A DNA stretch of 64,000 nucleotides from Eubacteriales bacterium (GTDB lineage Bacteria > Bacillota > Clostridia > Oscillospirales > SIG627), in assembly GCA_045594565.1 (NCBI GenBank), contig JAZNYT010000002.1, positions 1,824 through 65,823 on the forward strand, given 5' to 3'. The notes under the pieces are model-generated. The model did not search any database. It was not told the origin of the DNA and saw only the letters and a list, made by a program, of their open reading frames with translations. The translations under genes were made by a program, and so were the position numbers. Every line of letters starts with the position of its first letter. The first letter of the stretch is position 1. Shown here piece after piece: positions 3,381 to 62,300 of the stretch.

Positions 3381-3414
3381 AAGTCTTGTGCAATCGCACA
3401 AGACTTATTTTTTT
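3381..3414. terminator. bidirectional rho-independent terminator between convergent genes
   Basis: 11-bp stem AAGTCTTGTGC/GCACAAGACTT with loop AATC, an A-run before and a T-run after. Confidence 0.8.
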
Positions 3415-5020
3415 ATCTTTTTATTTTGTTTCTCAATCTGAGGAGGGTGCGTCCTGCAGGCAGGTCAAGAAGCTCCTCGTCACTGAACGTTTTCGACGTA
3501 AGGATGAGAGTACCGTATACTATAATTGCAACAGGCAGGGATGCTGCCATTGATATTATCATATTGCTTGTCGTTGTCAACATAACGTAGTAAAATGCAT
3601 AGGTTACAACACCCATAAAAGCCGAAACAACCAAGGGAAGCACAAATATGCTTTTTATCTTTGGCAGATACCCTATTTGCTTTAAACTGGTGTAGTTCAG
3701 AAAGGCGGTTACGAGAGGGAAGGTAACGTCGGCAATAAGCCTTGCGTATATTCCGAGTGAAGTAAACCTTATAAGCGCGTATATGAGAACGGTATGGAAT
3801 ACAAAGGATATAAATGCATTGATTACAGGCGCCCTCATTTTTCCGTTACCTTGCAAAACCGATGTGGTGATAATGGATAGTGAGTAGAATACACAACCAA
3901 CAGAGCCGTATTTGAGAAGCGCTATCGCTACCTCGCGGTAGGTTATGAGACTTGGAAAAAGTACTGTCATTATAGGTCTTGCCAGCACTGCAAGTCCCAC
4001 GGCAGAGGGAATGGATACTGCCATTGTAAGCTTGATTACGCCATCGATTTTTTTGTTCTTTTCTTCGTTCTTTCTTTCAATAAAAAGTCTTACCACTGCA
4101 GGCAGTGTAGATGCCGCAAGTGCCGTCGAAATAGCTATCGGCAGATTCACAAGACCCGTATACTGTGTGTTGAAAACACCTTGCAAAGAGGAAATCGCCT
4201 TGTCCGTAAATCCTTTTGACTCCATTAGATTGCCAAATATCAGGTCGTCAACCGTAAAGCTTATCTGAAAAACCGTCTGACTCAGAATAATGGGAATCAT
4301 CGTAAGGACTATTCCTCTGTAGGTGACACTCTTTCTTTCTGTGTCGGAGGTGTCGTTTTCAATTTCACTCTTTAAAGCTCTCATTCGTGATGCAAAGAAA
4401 AGAGAGAGCATTATCAGTGCACCAAAGGCTCCTGCCAGAGTACCCATAGTAGCACCCGCCGCGCCCATTGCCGACGAGCCCATGCTCTTCATAAAAAGCC
4501 AGGTGGCAAAGATGCTTACTCCCGCGTTTATTATCTGCTCAACAATTTGCGAAAGGGCAGTGGGCACCATATTTGAATGTCCCTGAAAGTATCCTCTGAA
4601 TACACCGAGAAGCGCAACTATGAAGGTAGTAGGCGCAAGCACCCTCAAGGGATACATAAGTCCCGTTCTGCCGTATAACGCTTCGAGAAATTCTGCCCCG
4701 AAGAAAAGCACCGAGAAAGCGGTTGTACCCGCAATGAGTGCGAAAACTAAAGCTCTTTTAAAAAGCACGAAAGCGTTTTTCGGGCTCTTTGATGCAAGCC
4801 TTTCCGACATAAGCTTCGATAGGGCAAGAGGGAGAGAGTAGGAGGAAAGAGTGAGGGCTACGTTGTAAATGCCGAATGCGACCGAGTAAATGCCGTTTCC
4901 TTCCTCGCCCAGCATATTTGCCATAGGGATTCTATAAATAAAGCCAATTATTTTAGTTATTATACCTGCAAGGGCAAGAATTGCGCCCTGCACGATGAGA
5001 GAGTTATTTTTCTTTTCCAT
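3413..5020 (-). CDS. MOP-superfamily polysaccharide biosynthesis/flippase protein (SpoVB/MurJ-like)
   Basis: Polytopic membrane protein. The N-terminus (SLIVQGAILALAGIITKIIGFIYRIPMANMLGEEGNGIYSVAFGIYN) is typical of SpoVB/MurJ-like flippases. I prefer the ATG at 5020 (GAGGTG RBS) over the ORF-track start at 5077. Confidence 0.8.
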   Translation of the reverse strand: MEKKNNSLIVQGAILALAGIITKIIGFIYRIPMANMLGEEGNGIYSVAFGIYNVALTLSSYSLPLALSKLMSERLASKSPKNAFVLFKRALVFALIAGTTAFSVLFFGAEFLEALYGRTGLMYPLRVLAPTTFIVALLGVFRGYFQGHSNMVPTALSQIVEQIINAGVSIFATWLFMKSMGSSAMGAAGATMGTLAGAFGALIMLSLFFASRMRALKSEIENDTSDTERKSVTYRGIVLTMIPIILSQTVFQISFTVDDLIFGNLMESKGFTDKAISSLQGVFNTQYTGLVNLPIAISTALAASTLPAVVRLFIERKNEEKNKKIDGVIKLTMAVSIPSAVGLAVLARPIMTVLFPSLITYREVAIALLKYGSVGCVFYSLSIITTSVLQGNGKMRAPVINAFISFVFHTVLIYALIRFTSLGIYARLIADVTFPLVTAFLNYTSLKQIGYLPKIKSIFVLPLVVSAFMGVVTYAFYYVMLTTTSNMIISMAASLPVAIIVYGTLILTSKTFSDEELLDLPAGRTLLRLRNKIKR

Positions 5021-5039
5021 AAAGCACCTCGTAGCATTT

Positions 5040-5068
5040 ATAATAACACTTTTTGGCTTTACTGTCAA
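5040..5068 (-). promoter_or_regulatory. sigma-A type promoter of the flippase gene
   Basis: Minus strand reads TTGACA (5068-5063), 17-nt spacer, TATTAT (5045-5040). Its vegetative-type appearance argues against a strictly sporulation-specific spoVB. Confidence 0.55.
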
Positions 5069-5086
5069 TAACCGCATTTTCGACTT

Positions 5087-5653
5087 TTGACGTTCGTGCC
5101 AATGATAATCGGTGAAATAAGAAGATATCTTCGCGACAACAATATGATAAGGGTGAGCCGTTCTGTGAGAGATATTGCATATAAGGCGCTTTCAGCAAAG
5201 GAGCACCTGAACCTCATACTTTCCAGAGAGCCCACCATCGAAGAGTTGACAGATGAGGTCAATAGACGCATGCGTATTGAAGCGGAGGAGAAAAAAAGAC
5301 TGGAGGGCATCGACGTGCCTCCCGCAGTTTACTCCGAAAAGATGATAGCAGGCGCTCTTGATGCCGTCGTTGCGCCAGTATCACTTTTTGAGCCTGTCTA
5401 TTCCGACAACGGAGATTCTATTTATATAATGGATCAGCTTTGTGATAATAAAAACAACGACGGTGTATGGACCGAAAGCATTGCCATATCCGAGGCAATG
5501 AAAAAGCTTTCCGAGAGGGAAAGCAAGATAATAAATATGCGCTTCTTTATGGGGAAAACTCAGATGGAGGTAGCTGAAGAGGTAGGGATTAGTCAGGCAC
5601 AGGTTTCTCGTCTTGAAAAGGGCGCCCTTGAACAAATAAAGAAAAATATATAA
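5087..5653 (+). CDS. sigG: RNA polymerase sporulation sigma factor SigG, 5'-truncated fragment (regions 2.4-4.2 only; possible pseudogene or split gene)
   Basis: VPMIIGEIRRYLRDNNMIRVSRSVRDIAYKAL, PVSLFEPVYSDNGDSIYIMDQ and RFFMGKTQMEVAEEVGISQAQVSRLEK match SigG nearly residue for residue. The roughly 95 N-terminal residues (regions 1.2-2.2) are absent. There is an in-frame TAA at 5069-5071, no SD sequence, and only TTG 5087 or ATG 5102 as possible starts. Confidence 0.85.
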   Translation: MTFVPMIIGEIRRYLRDNNMIRVSRSVRDIAYKALSAKEHLNLILSREPTIEELTDEVNRRMRIEAEEKKRLEGIDVPPAVYSEKMIAGALDAVVAPVSLFEPVYSDNGDSIYIMDQLCDNKNNDGVWTESIAISEAMKKLSERESKIINMRFFMGKTQMEVAEEVGISQAQVSRLEKGALEQIKKNI

Positions 5654-5664
5654 AAGTAAAAAGT

Positions 5665-5692
5665 AAGGTGAACGCCGAAAAGCGTTCACCTT
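5665..5692. terminator. hairpin terminator between convergent sigG fragment and yajC
   Basis: 11-bp stem AAGGTGAACGC/GCGTTCACCTT. The T-rich run lies on the minus-strand side, so it is stronger for yajC. Confidence 0.65.
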
Positions 5693-27397: not shown

Positions 27398-27970
27398 ATG
27401 AAAAAAATAACAGTTGTGTTGGTTGCCGTTTTACTTGTCGCATCGGTTATCGCCGCACTTTTTTCAGTAAGCGCCGAATATTCCGATTCCGACCCCCTTG
27501 TTACTCTCAGCTACATAAACGAAACGGTAATACCCAAGATTACAGAAGAAGTCAAGAATGCGGTTCTTGCAATTGTTGACGAGAAATATGCACCCAAACA
27601 GGAAGAACCCGAAAAACCGGAAGAGCCGGAAGTACCTGCAGAGCCGGAGGTGCCGACTGCTACAGCAGAAGAACTGGAAAGCCTCAGGTATGCAGTTGTA
27701 TTTCTGCAAAAAGGGCAAAAGCTTATGGCAACGGGTGCCGAAACCTCCTCTCTTGAGGTAATTCTCAGAGCAGGAAGCGTCGTAGCGGTATCTCCCTTCG
27801 ACGACCAAGGAATAGCCGACCTTACCTCCTCCAAGGAGCTTTATAATAACGACCCCCTTGTAAAGAACGACTATTGTATCATTCCGAGAGGAAGTGACGG
27901 TAGGGGCATATTTGCCGAAAACGGCGATGCCTACATTCTGGTGAGAGGAGAGTATGAAATTGTTCAATAA
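27398..27970 (+). CDS. hypothetical secreted/anchored protein with a Pro/Glu-rich linker
   Basis: Signal/anchor MKKITVVLVAVLLVASVIAALFSVSA, and an EEPEKPEEPEVPAEPEVP linker. I did not recognise any family. Confidence 0.6.
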   Translation: MKKITVVLVAVLLVASVIAALFSVSAEYSDSDPLVTLSYINETVIPKITEEVKNAVLAIVDEKYAPKQEEPEKPEEPEVPAEPEVPTATAEELESLRYAVVFLQKGQKLMATGAETSSLEVILRAGSVVAVSPFDDQGIADLTSSKELYNNDPLVKNDYCIIPRGSDGRGIFAENGDAYILVRGEYEIVQ

Positions 27971-30065
27971 CAACAAAGCCAAGAAGATGATTCGTGTAAT
28001 AGCCCTTATACTTGCAGCGCTTATGGTGCTTGGTATGGCGGTTATTGCTTTGGAAGCATTGGCAGAAGACGAAATTTCAACAACAGAAACTGTTGAACAG
28101 ACCGTTAGCGGAGAGGAAATCTCCGCTGACGAGTCGGACGTCACCGAAACACCCGAAACAACACAACCCGAGGAAGAAGAGACAGAAAAGACCGTTATTC
28201 CTGAACTTCCGTCGGGTTATTCTTATCTTACCGACCCATCTCTCACACCCAGAAACTTAAACGGTCTCGTTCCTCACCTTGATACTGTGACTCACTCCGT
28301 AAGAGTGGGAATATACTACATCTACGGCTCCAATAATTGCCTTGCATTCAGCCACAATATTTCCTCCGATAAAGGACTCGTTTTTTATACTACAATGAAT
28401 GACGAGTATATTTTCTATAAGACAAGCGAAAAAGGCGTTACGGTTATGCGTGATTTCTCTGCCGCTAAAAATTCTGCCGACAGATATTATCACACCACCA
28501 GCGGAAATACACATATTATATATCACTGCATCACAAAGGAAAGCGTTGCTCTTGACAAGGTTGACGAAACCATCGAGGTCTTTCGCTCGAAGCTTCCCGA
28601 AAACACTGTGATATTTCCTCTTTACGTCGACGGTAAAGCCTATATTGGCGTTGGCACCTATAAGGATAAAGCTGCATCAGAAGCCGATTGCCCTAATATG
28701 CAGAGCCTTCTCGGTGTCGAGTTTGTGCCCCGTACCCCCAACAATTCTTCTGTCAGCGTAGTGGAGACCGTAAGCGGAAAGATACTTTTTAAGATTGATA
28801 CAACAAGCCACCCCCTTTACGTGCGACCCATTCAGGACGGCAAAGAAGAGAGATATATCAAAAGTGCGGTAGGAAATATTTTCGACGGCACCTTCGAATA
28901 TAAGACTACCATCGACGGACTGTATCTCGTAAATATTCTTGATATTGAAGACTATATAAAGAGCGTTTTACCTTATGAGATTTCGGCATCCTGGCCCGAG
29001 GAAACCCTCAAAGCCTTTTCGATAGTTGTCCGCTCCTATACCCTCGCCATGCAGTACAAAAATCATCGCAAGCAGGACTTCGATATGTGCGACGAAACAC
29101 ACTGTCAGGCATACCGCGGAAGACTCCGTTCAACCGATAAGACGGATGCGGCAGTGGTCGCAACCAATAATATAGTACTAGCCTATGACTCCAAGATATG
29201 CGAAGCCTTCTATCATGCAATTTCGGGCGGTGTTACCGAATCTGCCGAGCTCGTGTGGGGGGGCAAAGGCTATGACTATCTCGTATCACAAGCTATTCCC
29301 GATGAAAAATACGAGAATTATACCAACGGCATATGGAAATTTGAGGTATCCGAAAAGGAGCTTTTCGATTATCTTGCGTCAAACTCAACCGTGTCAAAAT
29401 ACGTTAAGCACCCTATAACCTCGGTAAGAATATCGAAATATACCGATGCAGGTTACGCATACGAGCTTGAAATCGTTGACGAAAGCGGAACTGTTTCCAC
29501 CTTCACTAAATGTGATAACGTAAGAACTATTCTTTCAAAATACTGTAAATCCGCCAGACTCACCATAGGTAAATCTACAGGAGTCAAGGTGAACGACGGA
29601 GAAAGCGTTGTGATTGACCCCTTAAACGTAATTGCTACCGATAAGGACGGAAACCCTGTCCGCTATACTGCCCCCGTGGGAGACGGCGGAAAGGGTAAGA
29701 CGGTTATCAGCGGAAAGGGCGAAATCAGCGAGCTTAAATCGGATAACAACAACTACGTTATATCGGGTACAGGCTGGGGACACGGTGTAGGACTCAGTCA
29801 GTACGGTGCAAGAGATATGGCGAATAACGGATATAAATGGCAGGAAATTGCCCTCTATTTCTTCCCGAAATCCTATCTTGCACATCTGTCCGACCTCTCA
29901 ACTCCCATAGAGGACATAAATGCTCCTGTTGTTCCCGAACCCGAACCCGAGCCGACTCCCGAACCTGAACCGGAGCCCGAACCCGAGCAAGATCCCGAAG
30001 AGGAAGATGAGGAAAAGCCTGTTCTCCCTGAAAAAGAACCCTTCAAGCCTATTAAAATTGTATAA
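27954..30065 (+). CDS. SpoIID/LytB-domain protein (703 aa) with an uncharacterised N-terminal domain and a C-terminal PE repeat
   Basis: SpoIID motifs SWPEETLKAFSIVVRSYTL, CDETHCQAYRG, FYHAISGGVTESAELVWG and GWGHGVGLSQYGA. N-terminal TM anchor. Tail is PEPEPEPTPEPEPEPEPEQDPEEEDEE. Confidence 0.85.
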   Translation: MKLFNNNKAKKMIRVIALILAALMVLGMAVIALEALAEDEISTTETVEQTVSGEEISADESDVTETPETTQPEEEETEKTVIPELPSGYSYLTDPSLTPRNLNGLVPHLDTVTHSVRVGIYYIYGSNNCLAFSHNISSDKGLVFYTTMNDEYIFYKTSEKGVTVMRDFSAAKNSADRYYHTTSGNTHIIYHCITKESVALDKVDETIEVFRSKLPENTVIFPLYVDGKAYIGVGTYKDKAASEADCPNMQSLLGVEFVPRTPNNSSVSVVETVSGKILFKIDTTSHPLYVRPIQDGKEERYIKSAVGNIFDGTFEYKTTIDGLYLVNILDIEDYIKSVLPYEISASWPEETLKAFSIVVRSYTLAMQYKNHRKQDFDMCDETHCQAYRGRLRSTDKTDAAVVATNNIVLAYDSKICEAFYHAISGGVTESAELVWGGKGYDYLVSQAIPDEKYENYTNGIWKFEVSEKELFDYLASNSTVSKYVKHPITSVRISKYTDAGYAYELEIVDESGTVSTFTKCDNVRTILSKYCKSARLTIGKSTGVKVNDGESVVIDPLNVIATDKDGNPVRYTAPVGDGGKGKTVISGKGEISELKSDNNNYVISGTGWGHGVGLSQYGARDMANNGYKWQEIALYFFPKSYLAHLSDLSTPIEDINAPVVPEPEPEPTPEPEPEPEPEQDPEEEDEEKPVLPEKEPFKPIKIV

Positions 30066-31900: not shown

Positions 31901-32185
31901 TTACAACAGTTTTTTTGGCCTGACAGTACAGGTGCAAGCGGATTTTATAAGAATTGTATCGCTTCCTATCCTCACTATGTCGTCATAAGCAAATTTTTTT
32001 ATTTCCCTCGTTCTCGAAAAAGGCGTTTTACAGGGTACCGGCACGCAAAGAAACCTTATTATACCGCACTCCGCATCTATTTCGCCGTCGGTGACAAAGC
32101 CAAGCCTTTCTCCTGTTGCCGTATTTATTACTTCTTTCGAAAAAAGCTCACTTATTGTGAGACATCTCGCAGTTATTTCTCCCAT
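31901..32185 (-). CDS. ymxH: YlmC/YmxH family sporulation protein (PRC-barrel)
   Basis: ISELFSKEVINTATGERLGFVTDGEID pattern. Start at ATG 32185, 5 nt after GGAGG. Confidence 0.8.
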   Translation of the reverse strand: MGEITARCLTISELFSKEVINTATGERLGFVTDGEIDAECGIIRFLCVPVPCKTPFSRTREIKKFAYDDIVRIGSDTILIKSACTCTVRPKKLL

Positions 32186-32201
32186 AACAGCCTCCAAATT
32201 T

Positions 32202-32924
32202 TCAGAAAATACCGCTCTCTTTAATTATATTGCGTTTAAGCTCTTTTATGATTCTTTTTTCAAGCCTTGATATGTAGGACTGTGAGATACCCATGGTGTC
32301 TGCAAGCTCCTTTTGAGTTAGCTCTCTTTTTCCGTAGAGCCCGAAGCGCTTTACTATTATCTCTCGGTCTCTGTCGTTTAGCCTTTCTATAGCACGGTGA
32401 ATTATCATCCGCTCTTCTTCTGCCTCGAGTCCCTTTTGCACCTCGTCTGAATCCGACCCGAGTATATCTCCGAGAAGTAGCTCGTTTCCGTCGGAGTCGG
32501 TGTTCAGTGGCTCATCTATGGAAACCTCCATTTTAAGAGGAGTGGTCTTTCTTATAAACATAAGTATCTCGTTCTCGATACATTTTGAGGCGTAGGTAGC
32601 AATTTTGATATTCTTCGTGGGATTGAAGGTGTTGATGGCTTTAACAAGACCTATGGTTCCTATCGAAACCAGATCGTCGCTTCCGATTCCCGTTGATTCA
32701 AATTTCTTCGATATGTATACTACAAGCCTCAAATTGTGCGCTATCAGCGTGTCGCGACACCTTTGCACTCTTTCCTTGTCCTCACAGATAAGACCCTCCA
32801 TTACCTCTCTTTCTTCCTCTGCCGACAGTGGAGGCGGAAGAGTACCTACAGAATTTACGTAGTAGCTCTCGTTTTTGAAAAGAGACTTTATAAAGGCTTT
32901 TATTTTATTTAACAAATTCTTCAT
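32202..32924 (-). CDS. sigE: RNA polymerase sporulation sigma factor SigE (pro-sigma-E)
   Basis: Pro-sequence followed by PPPLSAEEE, NLRLVVYISKKF, IGTIGLVKAINTF, ATYASKCIENEILMFIR and ISQSYISRLEKR. The start overlaps the spoIIGA stop. Confidence 0.95.
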   Translation of the reverse strand: MKNLLNKIKAFIKSLFKNESYYVNSVGTLPPPLSAEEEREVMEGLICEDKERVQRCRDTLIAHNLRLVVYISKKFESTGIGSDDLVSIGTIGLVKAINTFNPTKNIKIATYASKCIENEILMFIRKTTPLKMEVSIDEPLNTDSDGNELLLGDILGSDSDEVQKGLEAEEERMIIHRAIERLNDRDREIIVKRFGLYGKRELTQKELADTMGISQSYISRLEKRIIKELKRNIIKESGIF

Positions 32925-55560: not shown

Positions 55561-56605
55561 AGTATGTATAATTGGTGTACATTTCTATCATATCGTATAT
55601 GGGAGAATACTTTGTTTCGCCATAGCCCGTAACCGCAATGTAGGTTTTGCCGTTCTTTTCTGCAAAGCTTACAAGACAGTGTCTGGACTGGGCTGTATAT
55701 CCTGTTTTACCTCCGCATATTTCCATTCCCTCTATCTGATTGCTCTTAACCTTGTTGAACATGGTTGAATAGAACTCTATTGGCTTTCTCGCGCCGGTTT
55801 CGGAATCTGTTGTTGTTCCTGTAGTGGTGTACTTGTAGGTGGAAAGAATCTTACGGCAAAGCTCATTTTGTATAGCATACTCAAGGATAATGCCCATATC
55901 GTAAGCCGTTGTATAGTGGTTTTCATCGTGAAGACCGCTGGTGTTGGTGAAATGAGTATCTATAAGTCCAAGCTCCTCGGCTTTCTCATTCATCATTTCA
56001 ACAAAATTTTCTTCACTGCCTGCAACGTATTCTGCAATGGATACGGTAGCATCGGCACCCGACGGAAGAATAATGCCGTAAAGAAGGTCGCGTATTGTTA
56101 CAACGTCGCCCGACTTGAATCCGGTAACGGTAGCGTTTTGCAAATAAAGGGGATTTATAATTTCAAAGGTCATAGTAAAGGTATCGTCAATATCAATTAT
56201 ATTTTCAACCGCAACGATAAGTGTCATCACCTTTGTCATAGAGGCAGGGAACATTCTTTCCTGCGAGCCTTTTCGTGCAAGAACCTTTCTGTTGTTAACA
56301 CAGTAAAGAAGCGCATATTGACTGTTAACGTTTGAATATAGCTGCTCGGAGTAATCGTCATATATAAGTGGCTCGGGAATATAAGCATCGTTTTTAAGTG
56401 ATATTGCCGGAGCGTTGCTTGGCAAAAGATTATCATAATCGTCCATCACCGCAATATCGTCGGGATTTTTTCCGAGAGACATTATTTTATCAACTGAAAA
56501 TACAATGAATTTTACAAAGTACGTAATTACCGTTATTACTACTGCACAAAGAAGAAGTAAAATCAAAAGTCTGTCATATCTGAATTTTCTCATCTTTTTG
56601 TTCAT
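55559..56605 (-). CDS. D-alanyl-D-alanine carboxypeptidase (S11 family, low-MW PBP)
   Basis: N-terminal TM anchor, SxxK motif PASMTKVMT, SGAD-like SGADA, and KTGYT. Confidence 0.85.
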   Translation of the reverse strand: MNKKMRKFRYDRLLILLLLCAVVITVITYFVKFIVFSVDKIMSLGKNPDDIAVMDDYDNLLPSNAPAISLKNDAYIPEPLIYDDYSEQLYSNVNSQYALLYCVNNRKVLARKGSQERMFPASMTKVMTLIVAVENIIDIDDTFTMTFEIINPLYLQNATVTGFKSGDVVTIRDLLYGIILPSGADATVSIAEYVAGSEENFVEMMNEKAEELGLIDTHFTNTSGLHDENHYTTAYDMGIILEYAIQNELCRKILSTYKYTTTGTTTDSETGARKPIEFYSTMFNKVKSNQIEGMEICGGKTGYTAQSRHCLVSFAEKNGKTYIAVTGYGETKYSPIYDMIEMYTNYTY

Positions 56606-59382: not shown

Positions 59383-62300
59383 TCAACTGTCATTTTGCCC
59401 AATTTCGATTTCCTTTGACAGACAAAAAGAATAAATATATACATTTGCCACCGAAACGCCTTCTATTTCTTCGACAGATTTTCTGTAAAGGTTTAGCTGA
59501 CGGGCGTGCCGTTCAATAAGGGCCTTCTCTCCGTCTTTTTTATTGACGTTGTCCGTTTTGAAGTCGATTATCGTATAGCTTCCGTCGTCATTCATATAGT
59601 AACAGTCGATAACACCCTGTATAAGAGTTTTCCTTGACTCTTTGTCAAGGTATTCTTTCTTTTTCTCGTCCTTAAAAAATTCCGACGATGGCATAAGAAT
59701 AGTGTATCTCTTTTCTCTTTCTACCTTCTTGGATTTAGCAATCTCCTTGTATATCTTCGACTTGAAGAAATCCGAGAGGGCTTTGTGGTTCAGCACGTTC
59801 ATTTGCTCCTCGGTGATAAAGCCGTATTTGAAGAGCCTTTCGGCTTCCTTTAAGGTAGTGTTCTTAACGCAATTTTCAAAATTGCAAAATTGCATAAACG
59901 TATGCATCGCAATTCCCGTAAAGGAGGAAAGATTGGAAGAATCCATAGCCATAAATTCAGGGTAACGTCGGATTCCCGATGCTTTAACGTCGGTTTCGTC
60001 AAGCAGTCCTTCGCGTATTTCTGAAACCGATATTTTGAAGGGGGTACCCTTTAAAAGAGGGGTGGCGATATCCTTCATCGCAAAATCTATTTCCTCTTTT
60101 GAAATCGCTCTGTTTCTCGCATCAATCTTCGTAACCTCGGGCACGTTCAGAAGATTTTTGCTTTCATACTCTGCAAAAAGGTTTATCTTCAGTCCTTCGC
60201 CGCAGTATTCAAGATTCTCGCCGCGGAAGCTCTCCACGGCTTTCTTGAATAATGGCTCGCTCATAAGACCCGCTCCAAGCATCTTTAAAACAGTTGATGC
60301 ATTTTTTATGAAGTATGAGAAGGTTGTGCGGTTTAAGACGGCACTTTTTGCATATGATATGAATTTGTCTATGTTTGTGTCAGCAGTTATTATCAGCTTA
60401 TATTTTGCCCTAGTTAATGCAACGTATAAAAGCCTTAATTCTTCGTCTGCGGTTGCAGCTCTTGTTTCTGCAACGGCTGCCTTTTCGGCGTAGGTATTAA
60501 CCTTAGCGCCAAGCTTTCCTGTGGGAATAGCGAATGCAGGTCCGAAGCTTTCACTCATAACAATTCGCTCCTTTTCATCCTGCCTGTTTATAAGAGAGTC
60601 TGCGGAGCAGAAAAAGCATATGGGGAACTCAAGACCCTTTGAATCGTGAACGGTTGTAACGTGTACGCAGTTTGACACTTCCTTTTCGCCGGTATTCTTC
60701 TTTTGGGTGAGTATATTATCGACGTAGGAAAGAAACTTCGTAATTCCCTTGAATTCGTTTCTTTCATAGCTTCTTGCCATTTCATAAAACGATATAAGAT
60801 TTTTACGTCTTTCGTCTGCATTGTTAAGCGTACCTGCGATACCCTGAAGGTGAGTATCCTGATATATATGCCATATAAACGACTCGGAAGAGAGTCTTCG
60901 AGAGGCTTCACGCCAGCTTGCAAGTCGCTCTATGACCGCTTGACATCTGCTCTTCAGGCTTTCGTCTGCACCTTTTCTTGCATATTCTGCCACGGCAAAA
61001 TAAATATCTGTATCAACGCTTCCGCGTCTCAGTGTCAAAAGGTCACTTGGCGTAAAATGAAAAACCGGAGAGGTGAGCGTTGCCAAAAAAGGTACGTCGT
61101 CCGAGGGATTATCACAGGCTCTTAAAAACGAGAGTATCGTTGAAATTTCGTAGCTTTCAAAAAAGCTTTTGTTCGGCGTATAATCCGAAGGAATAAGACG
61201 GCTTGTTAAAGCTTCCTGCACTTTTATAAGAGATTTGTGATTTCTTGCAAGGATACAGATATCCGAGAAGGAAAAATCTCCGCCTTCGACTATCGTGAGA
61301 ATTTTATCTGCAATAAAATCCAGCTCCCCCGAATCGTTGAAGATGCATAATTCCGTTTCGAGCTCCTTGTCCTCCTTTTTCGAGAATACCAGATGGTCGT
61401 CCTTTCTGTATATATCCTCGTTTCTGTAGTTCATGATAACTTCAAAAACGTTATTTACAAAATTTACAACCGATTTGTCCGAACGGAAATTATTCTGCAG
61501 AGAAATGAGAGTTGGCGCAAAGCTTTCCCTTTCTTCGTCAACCGATAAAAAGGTGTTGCGGTACTCCATAAATATTTCGGGAGTGGCGCCTCTGAATTTG
61601 TATATACTCTGCTTTACGTCGCCTACCATAAAGCGATTGTGAGAGTTTGAAACTGCACGGAAAATCGTATCCTGCAATTCGTTTACGTCCTGATATTCGT
61701 CGATGAGAATCTCGTTGAACTTTTCACCCATAGATATGGCGTAATCGGTCTTTGTAAATTCTCTCGTTTCGTGATTGTAGCTACCTTCAACCACAAGCGC
61801 TTTGTATGCGAAATGCGCAACGTCATCAAAAGAAAGAATCCTCTTTTCAAGCTTCTTTTCCATAATGCGCTCATGCACCTTTTGAATGAGAGCAAAAAGC
61901 TCACAACAGATAGAATATGTATCGGCTATATGAGAGAACAGCGTCTCGCTGTCGCCGATAGGGAAGGATTTTATTAAGCCTTCAATAACTCCTTTTCCGC
62001 ACTCTCGATATGCCTTGAAGCTCTTTTGAGCCGACTTTTCGTCATCAGTTGTGGGACTGAACCTGTCTAGGGATATAGCTTTGTATTCGGAAAGCTTTGC
62101 TATCATTTCCGACATGTTTTCCGAAGTGTAAATTTGCGTTGCGACTGCAATGTCGTGGTTAATTGCATCGGAATACTTTTCCGCCATTGCTTCTCTTGAA
62201 ACAAGCTCGTCGCGTGCGGCTTCGAACAAGGTGAGCGCAACGTGAACCCTTTCGGTGTATTCCGCTTTTATAATTTTTCCAACGTGAGTATCAAAGAAAG

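What the first reader, a model, noticed from the sequence alone, without database searches (positions are those of the whole stretch)
5040..5653. sigG survives only as a promoter-less 3' fragment fused to the promoter of a divergent gene
The ORF at 5087-5653 is unmistakably SigG, but only from region 2.4 onward (VPMIIGEIRRYLRDNN ... KTQMEVAEEVGISQAQVSRLEK). The roughly 95 N-terminal residues, which carry core-binding regions 1.2-2.2, are missing.

Homology stops around 5093. An in-frame TAA sits at 5069-5071, there is no SD sequence, and 5040-5068 is already the -10/-35 of the oppositely oriented flippase gene. The breakpoint is therefore confined to about 25 bp.

None of the ORFs of 60 aa or more in the window encodes the missing half. 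The fragment itself has no internal stop or frameshift and keeps its terminator, so it is either very recently broken or still under selection.

Every other sporulation gene here looks intact, so I see three possible explanations. It could be an inactivating inversion or rearrangement in an asporogenous lineage. It could be a decayed duplicate, with an intact sigG elsewhere. Or it could be a split sigma gene rejoined by DNA rearrangement, as is established for sigK and the skin element. I know of no such case for the forespore factor sigG.
Basis: partly seen in the sequence, partly recalled or inferred. Interest (0 to 1): 0.7.

Follow-up and report, generated by a model that had tools for sequence, protein, structure and literature searches.

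The report
Recombinase-split forespore sigma factor gene
The window holds only the back two-thirds of sigG, the sigma factor gene that runs late spore development, cut exactly at the attachment site of a phage-type serine integrase; this may be the first split sporulation gene that belongs to the heritable forespore rather than the disposable mother cell.

Summary
ORF 5096/5102-5653 is SigG from region 2.4 onward. It has no promoter, no Shine-Dalgarno sequence and no 5' half anywhere in the 64 kb.

It is not a recent break or an artefact.
- The same junction (flippase | sigG-3' | yajC) recurs in four species and in at least 10 independent assemblies.
- pN is 0.13-0.20 against saturated pS of 0.65-0.82.

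The break is a large-serine-recombinase attachment site. Bases 5077-5101 (TTTTCGAC-N4-GACGTTCGT-GCCA) mirror the sequence that follows truncated sigG 5' halves elsewhere (CCAATGAATGTC-N4-GTCGAAAA). Those 5' halves keep a sigmaF-type promoter and a Shine-Dalgarno sequence. In several lineages they abut a conserved 451-463 aa serine integrase and a small upstream ORF.

IMG/VR prophages of 29-61 kb sit between sigG halves in direct orientation. Joining the halves in silico at the Pro codon gives a protein that passes the SigG equivalog cutoff.

My best reading is that this is the attR-side segment of an integrase-split sigG, rejoined by site-specific recombination.

Three things remain unproven: the partner locus of this genome, the relative orientation of the two halves, and any rejoined molecule. 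None turned up among about 15 billion public proteins. I found no published case of a split sigG.

The parts
5096..5653 (+). 3' segment of sigG: sigma regions 2.4, 3 and 4, with the stop codon at 5651-5653. It carries a 22-aa insertion in region 3 that is typical of this clade.
   Evidence: NCBIfam SigG PRK08215 scores 229.9 bits against a cutoff of 372, and Pfam finds Sigma70_r4. tblastn aligns it to SigG residues 96-253. pN is 0.13-0.20 against pS 0.65-0.82 between four species. Joined in silico to a 5' half it scores 406.7 or 372.9 bits, at or above the cutoff.
5077..5098 (.). P-type half-site of an attR site for a large serine recombinase: outer motif TTTTCGAC (5077-5084), a 4-nt spacer, and inner motif GACGTTCGT (5089-5097).
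   Evidence: It mirrors the P' arms after sigG 5' halves (ATGAATGTC-N4-GTCGAAAA) in L058, L089-L093 and L210-L212, and it resembles the attR of prophage contig L221. In a 9-lineage alignment it is conserved while the sequence further upstream is not alignable. It is the only such site in the window.
5099..5100 (.). Putative crossover dinucleotide: the CC of the Pro codon CCA.
   Evidence: This is inference. CC is the only identity shared by attL and attR in the least self-similar att family (IMG/VR contig _064544). Joining the halves here restores ...FSTYAVP|MIIGE... in frame.
5101..5125 (+). B'-type half-site: native sigG coding sequence A-ATGATAATCGGTGAAATAAGAAGA.
   Evidence: ATGAT.AT.GG.GA.AT is invariant in the alignment of 9 attR regions and continuous with intact sigG genes.
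5069..5071 (+). In-frame TAA that closes the reading frame upstream of the fragment.
5040..5068 (-). SigmaA-type promoter of the divergent flippase gene: TTGACA, 17-nt spacer, TATTAT, with an extended TG. It is a neighbour, not part of sigG.
   Evidence: Promoter scan, 11 of 12 consensus positions. TGTCAA and CAYTTTTT are conserved in L001, L005 and L008.
3413..5020 (-). SpoVB/MurJ-family flippase gene. It lies on the non-sigG side of the junction and is conserved there across the clade.
   Evidence: Pfam Polysacc_synt and MurJ; NCBIfam spore_V_B 213.8 bits, below its cutoff. Synteny is shown.
5665..5692 (.). Hairpin between sigG-3' and the convergent yajC gene. The scan scored it as a terminator on the minus strand only, downstream of yajC; its possible use to end sigG-3' transcription on the plus strand is my reading.
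   Evidence: Terminator scan: 12-bp stem with 6 GC pairs.

Best explanation
Window 5096-5653 is the attR-side 3' segment of a sigG gene that was split, in an ancestor of this Oscillospiraceae/Ruminococcaceae-like clade, by integration of an element carrying a phage-type large serine recombinase (LSR). The cut is at the Pro codon of the conserved ...FSTYAVP|MIIGE... motif.

SHOWN
- The fragment is SigG regions 2.4-4 only.
- It has no promoter or Shine-Dalgarno sequence of its own.
- It is flanked upstream by a conserved LSR half-site.
- The junction is ancient and under purifying selection.
- In other lineages, sigG 5' halves end at the same codon. They carry the mirror-image half-site, keep a sigmaF-type promoter and a Shine-Dalgarno sequence, and in several lineages abut a conserved LSR gene preceded by a small ORF.
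- Bona fide prophages lie between sigG halves in direct orientation.
- Joining the halves at the CC restores a protein that passes the SigG equivalog cutoff.

INFERRED
- This genome keeps a 5' half and an LSR elsewhere, more than 58 kb away on the yajC side and more than 5 kb away on the flippase side.
- During sporulation the LSR, with a directionality factor (perhaps the small ORF), recombines attL with attR to rebuild sigG under the 5' half's forespore promoter.
- The LSR alone re-splits the gene after germination.

In related genomes the two loci are never on one contig, even contigs of 237-310 kb, and both junctions are flanked by ordinary chromosomal genes. The rearrangement would therefore be either a large inversion or the excision and re-integration of a very large circle, not the loss of a small prophage.
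For: Identity and truncation.

Conserved synteny and independent assemblies.

Purifying selection:
- C-half: pN 0.13-0.20 against pS 0.65-0.82.
- N-half pN/pS 0.04-0.25; LSR pN/pS 0.07-0.32, with the catalytic YIRVSTDAQ motif intact.

The truncated form outranks all full-length relatives. About 55 clusters at 67-100% identity are 162-194 aa long.

An exhaustive search with a SigG N-terminus gave 150 best representatives. Only 34 continue into VPMIIGE; dozens diverge right after VP(M).

Genome scan: N-half-only loci L038, L058, L059, L074, L075 and L086.

LSR next to the N-half:
- L058 carries Resolvase + Recombinase + Zn_ribbon_recom.
- More than 120 LSR clusters at 64-77% identity.
- The same N-half >< LSR + small ORF arrangement appears in L089-L095, in two different upstream contexts.

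Mirror-image half-sites and a 9-lineage alignment.

SigmaF-type promoter (GTATA-N14/15-GnnAnATAAT) and a strong Shine-Dalgarno sequence upstream of the N-halves. No Shine-Dalgarno or usable promoter before the C-half.

Prophages bounded by sigG halves, both on the same strand: IMG/VR contigs _092089 (56.6 kb), _064544 (29.6 kb), _028031 (56.1 kb) and _022179 (61.0 kb). Phage gene content is shown.

The LSR is phrog_95 integrase, 37-46% identical to phage serine integrases.

In-silico rejoined proteins score 406.7 and 372.9 bits against a cutoff of 372.
Against: - The 5' half and the LSR of this very genome were not found. The window and its relatives L001, L005 and L008 have no LSR within the sequence available.
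- No single assembly was shown to hold both halves. The one same-sample pair (L005 and L089) sits in different NCBI MAG accession blocks.
- Some family-A N-half loci (L038, L074, L075) have no adjacent LSR.
- No rejoined full-length protein exists among the public assemblies searched. The best full-length hits to an in-silico rejoined query are only 62-68% identical, and all 15 contigs carrying P0017 are in the split state.
- sigG acts in the forespore (established knowledge). A rearrangement there would be inherited unless reversed, and no precedent is known.
- The orientation of the two sites is unknown.
Confidence: 0.6

Rival explanations
1. Two-piece sigma factor. The 5' half (regions 1.2-2.3, about 100 aa) and this 3' half (regions 2.4-4) are translated separately and assemble non-covalently on RNA polymerase, so no DNA rejoining is needed. 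The integrase site would be only the historical cause of the split.
For: Both halves are under purifying selection. The N-halves keep a promoter, a Shine-Dalgarno sequence and an early stop codon. No rejoined gene is seen in any public assembly. A conserved ATG (the Met of VPM) is available at 5102.
Against: The C-half has no Shine-Dalgarno sequence at any candidate start. It also has no promoter that would transcribe from upstream of 5102. The cut lies inside the region 2.3/2.4 segment of the sigma-2 domain, not at a domain boundary (established sigma-70 architecture). The non-coding half-site upstream and the neighbouring integrase in other lineages are conserved, which pure protein complementation does not require.
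Confidence: 0.1
2. Retained paralogue. The genome has an intact sigG elsewhere, and this fragment is a neofunctionalised remnant, for example a region 3-4 DNA-binding protein or an anti-sigma decoy.
For: The rest of the genome could not be searched. Full-length SigG proteins with the same region-3 insertion exist at 64-71% identity in similar MAG collections.
Against: There are no expression signals. The conservation reaches into the non-coding att half-site. The truncation point is identical to that of prophage insertions and of the N-halves. The closest intact genes sit in unrelated contexts, and nothing links them to these genomes.
Confidence: 0.1
3. Dead gene in an asporogenous lineage. 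A rearrangement destroyed sigG, sporulation was lost, and the fragment is a pseudogene.
For: There is no promoter, no Shine-Dalgarno sequence and no 5' half within 64 kb. No rejoined form has been observed.
Against: There is no stop codon or frameshift across species whose synonymous sites are saturated, and pN/pS is about 0.2. About 55 sequence clusters keep the same 183-aa frame. spoIIGA, sigE and a SpoIID-domain gene in the window score as their families.
Confidence: 0.05
4. Intron or intein-type split: trans-splicing of RNA or protein joins the halves.
For: The breakpoint is conserved in a highly conserved motif, as is usual for homing elements. Some N-halves read into a protein with weak HNH_repeat similarity.
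Against: There is no group I or II intron match, or any significant Rfam match, at the junction. An in-frame TAA lies 30 nt upstream and no intein-like sequence is present. The 75-nt intergenic region is occupied by the flippase promoter. The flanks have the dyad architecture of a serine-integrase site.
Confidence: 0.02

Closest known systems
skin element in sigK (B. subtilis SpoIVCA; C. difficile CD1231 with the directionality factor CD1234)
   Same: A sporulation sigma factor gene is cut into a 5' and a 3' segment at a serine-recombinase att site. In related lineages the recombinase gene lies next to the 5' segment. The 3' segment lacks its own expression signals. Rejoining would restore the reading frame.
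   Different: sigK is a mother-cell gene, and the excised DNA is lost with a cell that dies (PMC4191935, PMC5025042). sigG is the forespore factor, so the rearranged chromosome is the one that is inherited. In this clade the DNA next to both junctions is ordinary chromosomal DNA rather than prophage, and the halves are never on one contig, even contigs of 237-310 kb. Rejoining has not been observed here.
SPbeta prophage in spsM (SprA integrase with the SprB directionality factor)
   Same: A phage-type large serine integrase and very large SPbeta-like prophages are involved. One sigG-associated contig, L210, is 156.7 kb and carries dUTPase, NrdD, ligase and endolysin genes. The att sites have short cores and inverted-repeat arms.
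   Different: The target gene and the cell compartment differ. The integrase is only distantly related: the best cultured-phage hits are 37-46% identical.
gin element in gerE (B. cereus; GirC/GirX), a non-prophage intervening element
   Same: A serine recombinase with a small accessory factor works without any phage genes. This is the precedent that intervening DNA need not be viral (PMC5595907).
   Different: gin is 28.6 kb, is excised as a unit and interrupts a mother-cell gene. Here the element boundaries cannot even be drawn.
Reversible active lysogeny (phage regulatory switches, for example the Listeria comK prophage) and engineered integrase/RDF flip-flop switches
   Same: They match what this system would have to do: excise or invert to switch a gene on, then re-integrate or re-invert, using the intrinsic directionality of integrase alone versus integrase plus directionality factor.
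   Different: Those systems are not tied to sporulation. The engineered ones are synthetic. The comparison rests on my own knowledge and was not tested here.
Two-subunit sigma factor SigO-RsoA of B. subtilis
   Same: The sigma-2-like and sigma-4-like parts are encoded by separate genes.
   Different: Those genes are adjacent, each has translation signals, and the division lies between domains. Here the cut is inside sigma-2 and coincides with an att site.

Membership tests
SigG (NCBIfam PRK08215 / TIGR02850) | Sequence matches SigG better than any other sigma family. | tested here: met
   SigG is the top hit at 229.9 bits. SigF scores 168 and SigE/SigK below 50.
SigG (NCBIfam PRK08215 / TIGR02850) | Full-length protein with core-binding regions 1.2-2.3 that passes the equivalog cutoff. 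| tested here: not met
   The fragment alone scores 229.9 against a cutoff of 372, and only the C-terminal roughly two-thirds of the model is covered. Joined in silico to N-halves from L089 or L038 it scores 406.7 or 372.9 bits for PRK08215, at or above the cutoff.
Sporulation gene-intervening element system (skin / SPbeta / gin type) | A sporulation gene is split into two in-frame segments at one point. | tested here: inconclusive
   The 3' segment is in the window. Matching 5' segments ending at the same codon occur in other genomes. The 5' segment of this genome could not be searched for.
Sporulation gene-intervening element system (skin / SPbeta / gin type) | attL and attR have a shared core and inverted-repeat arms. 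| tested here: met
   The window's TTTTCGAC-N4-GACGTTCGT-GCCA mirrors CCAATGAATGTC-N4-GTCGAAAA at the N-halves. The predicted attP is a near-perfect palindrome.
Sporulation gene-intervening element system (skin / SPbeta / gin type) | A site-specific recombinase gene lies inside the element next to a junction. | tested here: not met
   There is no serine recombinase in the 64-kb window or within 10 kb in L001, L005 or L008. The feature is met at the N-half junction in L058, L089-L095 and L210-L212, and at the C-half junction in prophages L220-L242.
Sporulation gene-intervening element system (skin / SPbeta / gin type) | A recombination directionality factor is present. | tested here: inconclusive
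   A conserved 38-60 aa ORF (xRxYVNGKxxTKEEL...) precedes the LSR gene in both chromosomal and prophage loci. It has no Pfam or PHROG family, so its role is a guess.
Sporulation gene-intervening element system (skin / SPbeta / gin type) | The gene is rebuilt by a developmentally regulated rearrangement. | not testable with these tools
   This needs DNA from sporulating cells or spores. No rejoined protein is present in public assemblies.
Sporulation gene-intervening element system (skin / SPbeta / gin type) | [quoted passage not shown] | tested here: not met
   The gene is sigG, which is forespore-specific by established knowledge. The N-halves carry a sigmaF-type promoter motif. All published cases I found are in mother-cell genes.
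Integrated prophage | Phage genes lie between the two gene halves, within tens of kb and in direct orientation. | tested here: not met
   The window's flank (flippase, SLH protein, sugar enzymes) and the L001 and L008 flanks are not phage-like. The feature is met for IMG/VR contigs _092089, _064544, _028031 and _022179.
Large serine recombinase (serine integrase), assessed on the partner enzyme in related loci | N-terminal resolvase domain with the catalytic Ser, a recombinase domain and a zinc ribbon. | tested here: met
   Pfam PF00239, PF07508 and PF13408. YIRVSTDAQ is conserved. The protein is phrog_95 integrase.
Two-subunit sigma (SigO-RsoA type) | Each part has its own translation signals and the division lies between domains. 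| tested here: not met
   There is no Shine-Dalgarno sequence or promoter for the C-half. The cut lies within the region 2.3/2.4 motif FSTYAVP|MIIGE.
Group I/II intron or split intein | Intron RNA structure or intein motifs at the junction. | tested here: not met
   Rfam finds nothing at the junction at E<=1. An in-frame stop lies 30 nt upstream.

The most novel reading that the evidence does not exclude
Sporulation in a whole clade of gut and rumen Clostridia depends on a reversible germ-line DNA rearrangement. A domesticated phage integrase, with a small directionality factor, rebuilds sigG in the forespore by inverting (or excising and later re-integrating) several hundred kb of chromosome. 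The integrase alone splits the gene again after germination. This would be a natural integrase/RDF flip-flop acting as a checkpoint on sigmaG. Free-living prophages would use the same site to ride in spores or to control host sporulation.
Probability: 0.3. Interest if true: 0.9.

Novelty: new variant of a known kind. Interest (0 to 1): 0.8.

Why it matters
Every described sporulation gene rearrangement (sigK, spsM, spoVFB, spoVR, gerE, yabG) is in a mother-cell gene. The accepted reason is that the mother cell's genome is thrown away, so nothing is inherited.

A split sigG breaks that logic, because sigmaG works in the forespore, whose chromosome becomes the next generation. Three outcomes are possible: the rearrangement is reversible, the excised DNA is carried in the spore, or the two halves work without joining. 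Each would be new biology for the control of sigmaG, whose activation is still debated.

The data also show that the VPMIIGE-coding stretch of sigG is a common landing site for serine-integrase prophages in gut Clostridia. This bears on three practical questions:
- how phages interact with sporulation;
- predictions of sporulation ability from MAGs, since a truncated sigG would be scored as missing or broken;
- virome surveys that report phage-encoded sigF/sigG homologues, some of which may be host gene halves at prophage ends.

The conserved integrase and att pairs are also candidate genome-engineering tools.

Tried and rejected
1. Cis or trans intron. Rfam found nothing at the junction, and no domain-5-like hairpin is visible in 5021-5095.
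2. Split intein. An in-frame TAA lies at 5069-5071 and no intein sequence is present.
3. Finding the 5' half nearby. It is absent from the window in all frames. The gap after sigE holds a PRC-barrel ORF, not sigG.
4. Linking halves by shared contig length. No contig length is common to the C-half list and the LSR list.
5. Linking halves by sample. L005 and L089 come from the same JGI metagenome, but their NCBI accessions fall in different MAG blocks. I first read them as one genome and withdrew that. P0126 gave other sequencing runs.
6. Mirror-tree pairing of N- and C-halves. It gave strong correlations only with a biased reference set and none with a broad one, so it has no power here.
7. GC skew, to infer orientation relative to replication. 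The signal is dominated by local gene strand.
8. attP search in viral contigs. One chance hit fell inside an ORF.
9. Metagenome scan for more clade members.
10. Viral scan with the N-half/HNH-like fusion protein P0153 found nothing.
11. Looking up window proteins to extend the contig. They are not on record.
12. Family assignment of the small ORF. No Pfam or PHROG match.
Full report
**What is in the window**

The ORF at 5087(TTG)/5102(ATG)-5653 on the + strand is a SigG fragment.
- The NCBIfam SigG equivalog PRK08215 is the best hit, at 229.9 bits against a cutoff of 372. SigF, SigB, SigK and SigE all score lower.
- Pfam finds only region 4, plus a weak region 3.
- A B. subtilis SigG probe, recalled from memory and used only as a lead, aligns from residue 96 (VPMIIGEIRRYL) to residue 253 at 55% identity. 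The alignment has a 22-aa insertion in region 3.
- The frame is closed by TAA at 5069-5071.
- The 75 nt between the fragment and the divergent SpoVB/MurJ-family flippase gene (3413-5020, minus strand) hold a near-consensus sigmaA promoter for that gene: TTGACA-17-TATTAT at 5068..5040, 11 of 12 positions.
- No GGAG/GAGG/AGGA precedes any candidate start codon of the fragment.
- A hairpin at 5665-5692 separates the fragment from the convergent yajC gene.
- No 5' half exists in any frame of the 64 kb. The only other sigma gene is sigE at 32202-32924, directly downstream of spoIIGA and followed by a small PRC-barrel ORF and a dGTPase gene.

**It is neither recent nor an artefact**

A search of about 5.8 billion protein clusters returned roughly 55 clusters of the truncated form. 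They are 162-194 aa long, mostly 183 aa starting MIIGEIRR, and 67-100% identical to the window. They rank ahead of the closest full-length SigG proteins, which are 64-66% identical.

Three relatives have the same arrangement, flippase(-) | sigG-3'(+) | yajC(-): L001 at 73%, L005 at 77% and L008 at 69%. The P0017 form was assembled with these neighbours in at least 10 independent metagenomes.

Between the four species, synonymous sites are saturated (pS 0.65-0.82) while pN is 0.13-0.20. That rules out a decaying pseudogene.

**The break point is shared far beyond this clade**

I ran an exhaustive phmmer search with the first 93 residues of a full-length relative against 1.84 billion representatives. 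Of the best 150, only 34 continue FSTYA-VPMIIGE. Dozens match SigG up to ...FSTYAVP(M) and then diverge at exactly the residue where the window fragment begins.

A scan of GTDB species genomes gave 80 loci. Most are intact, but six are N-half-only with no 3' half within the flank available (up to 10 kb, less where the contig ends): L038, L058, L059, L074, L075 and L086. A metagenome scan added four C-half-only loci from other lineages: L107, L110, L139 and L162.

**The break is a serine-integrase attachment site**

In L058 a 453-aa large serine recombinase (Resolvase + Recombinase + Zn_ribbon_recom) lies immediately after the N-half, convergent with it.

Its homologues form more than 120 clusters at 64-77% identity, all 451-477 aa, in Clostridia, Oscillospiraceae and Ruminococcaceae MAGs.

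Four further look-ups show the same pairing, N-half (105-119 aa, Sigma70_r2 only) >< LSR, preceded by a conserved 50-55 aa ORF. It occurs in two different upstream contexts: PRC-NAPRTase in L089-L092, and spoIIGA-sigE in L093-L095.

The N-halves and the LSR are under purifying selection, and the catalytic YIRVSTDAQ motif is intact.

The DNA at the junctions has the dyad architecture expected of LSR sites.
- N-halves read ...TAYGCNGTGCC-AATGAATGTC-N4-GTCGAAAA.
- The window reads TTTTCGAC(5077-5084)-TTTT-GACGTTCGT(5089-5097)-GCCA(5098-5101)-ATGATAATC.
- The two non-sigG arms are mirror images of each other, so the inferred attP is a near-perfect palindrome.

In an alignment of nine attR regions from lineages whose upstream DNA is otherwise unalignable, the arm positions and CC.ATGAT are invariant. 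The window has only this one site.

In the att family with the least arm similarity, the only identity shared by attL and attR is the CC of the Pro codon. I therefore place the crossover at 5099-5100. This is inference.

**Expression signals are divided as a rejoining model predicts**

N-halves in L058, L089 and L091 keep a sigmaF-type promoter motif (GTATA-N14/15-GnnAnATAAT, compared with the published consensus from memory). They also keep a strong Shine-Dalgarno sequence and a start codon. The C-half has none of these.

Joining an N-half to the window's C-half at the CC gives an uninterrupted protein. With the L089 N-half it scores 406.7 bits and with the L038 N-half 372.9 bits, against the SigG cutoff of 372. 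The intact relative P0047 scores 384.4.

**Real prophages use the same site**

IMG/VR contigs carry a sigG N-half at one end and a C-half at the other, on the same strand.

| Contig | Length | N-half | C-half |
|---|---|---|---|
| _092089 | 56.6 kb | 24-293 | about 56,140-56,604 |
| _064544 | 29.6 kb | 140-409 | about 29,105-29,581 |
| _028031 | 56.1 kb | 140-409 | about 55,656-56,132 |
| _022179 | 61.0 kb | 121-390 | about 60,488-60,964 |

An LSR gene lies next to one junction in many of these viral loci, beside either the N-half or the C-half.

L210 is the end of a 156.7-kb SPbeta-like contig (dUTPase, NrdD, guanylate kinase, endolysin, ligase). Its integrase is 58% identical to the L058 type. 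L221 is a 66.7-kb prophage whose attR arm, TTTCGAC-N4-GATAGTC-AT-TCCG, resembles the window's.

At least three other arm families use the same crossover point. The LSR is phrog_95 integrase, and its closest cultured relatives are phage serine integrases at 37-46% identity.

**What is special about the window's clade**

Both sides of its junction, and both sides of the LSR-linked N-half loci, are flanked by ordinary chromosomal genes conserved across species. On the window's side these are the flippase, an SLH protein, a beta-lactamase-fold protein and glycosidases. On the N-half side they are an amidohydrolase, an aminotransferase and 2-oxoacid:ferredoxin oxidoreductase.

No contig carries both halves. 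The window has 58 kb on the yajC side. The L001 contig has 77 kb on the flippase side and 159 kb on the yajC side. The L091 contig has about 256 kb beyond the integrase. No contig length is shared between the C-half and LSR hit lists.

If the halves are rejoined, the event is therefore a large inversion or the excision of a very large circle, not the loss of a small element.

**Limits**

I could not show that any one assembly holds both halves, nor which N-half type partners the window's C-half.
- The same-sample pair L005/L089 falls in different NCBI MAG accession blocks.
- A mirror-profile test had no power with an unbiased reference set.
- GC content is compatible but uninformative.
- Some family-A N-halves (L038, L074, L075) have no adjacent integrase.
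- Orientation could not be inferred from skew.
- An in-silico rejoined SigG found no rejoined protein in the public collection, only intact SigG from other lineages at 62-68% identity. The split state is the only one ever assembled.

**Alternatives**
- An intron or intein is excluded by Rfam and by the in-frame stop.
- A dead gene is contradicted by selection.
- A two-piece sigma or a retained paralogue remains possible at about 10% each. Both are disfavoured by the missing expression signals, by the position of the cut inside sigma-2, and by conservation of the non-coding half-site.

**Comparison with what is known**

The closest systems are skin/sigK, SPbeta/spsM and gin/gerE. In each, a serine recombinase plus a small directionality factor rebuilds a sporulation gene (PMC4191935, PMC5025042, PMC5595907, PMC10747680).

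Every described case is in a mother-cell gene. Reviews call these switches non-reversible because the excised DNA dies with the mother cell (PMC13492144).

Eight full-text searches, and the papers I opened from them, turned up no report of an interrupted sigG. Comparative surveys state that sigG is found in every spore-former (10.1101/2022.02.25.481979). Subscription-only literature was not searchable.

I file this as a new variant of a known kind. The machinery is familiar. The target is the forespore sigma factor, in a domesticated, long-range configuration.

**Verdict**

About 0.85 is my confidence that this is the attR-side segment of an integrase-split sigG. About 0.6 is my confidence in the full statement including recombinational rejoining. 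Interest 0.8.

Noticed in passing
window about 31950-32190 (-), directly downstream of sigE (32202-32924): A small PRC-barrel (YlmC/YmxH-like) ORF with its own GGAGG follows sigE, then a dGTPase gene. In L074 and L093 the sigG 5' half directly follows sigE. A PRC gene also sits next to the sigG 5' half in L089 and L091.
   Followed up: partly
window about 5255-5330, within the sigG fragment: A roughly 22-aa insertion in sigma region 3 (RRMRIEAEEKKRLEGIDVPPAVYSEK) is shared by the truncated clade and by its nearest intact relatives (P0042-P0056). It is absent from B. subtilis SigG and from the 256-aa SigG group.
   Followed up: partly
P0153, P0159, P0215, P0144, P0171; locus L086 9794-10261: In other genomes the sigG 5' half reads on, in frame, into a conserved protein of about 200 aa (M[ST]R..AL..AI...WTKE...). 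It has only a weak HNH_repeat (PF18780) hit. This looks like a different element type inserted at the same codon.
   Followed up: partly
L058 about 5040-5200 (-); L089 9841-10008; L091 9853-10008; L093 9775-9927; L211, L221, L226: A conserved 38-60 aa ORF (xRxYVNGKxxTKEEL...I..N...) sits directly upstream of, or overlaps, the serine integrase start in both chromosomal and prophage loci. It has no Pfam or PHROG family. It is a candidate recombination directionality factor.
   Followed up: partly
IMG/VR loci L186-L256: Many contigs classed as viral end in host sigG halves. Counts of phage-encoded sigF/sigG homologues in virome surveys (for example PMC10294663) may therefore include host gene halves at prophage boundaries.
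   Followed up: no
P0038 (267 aa, ENA contig of 20.3 kb): This SigG-like protein has a tandem duplication that restarts exactly at YAVPMIIGEIRRYL, the same point as the att site. It is either an assembly artefact at a repeated junction or a recombination product.
   Followed up: no
window 27954-30065 (+), and the region around 43-44 kb: A 703-aa protein carries a SpoIID/LytB domain, far longer than canonical SpoIID. Gene orientation switches from mostly + to mostly - near 43-44 kb, without a clear GC-skew signal.
   Followed up: no
L038 913-1416 (-): Just after a sigG 5' half with no adjacent integrase lies a 167-aa ORF. From its sequence alone it looks like a ferritin-like / manganese-catalase (CotJC-type) protein; I ran no family search on it.
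   Followed up: no
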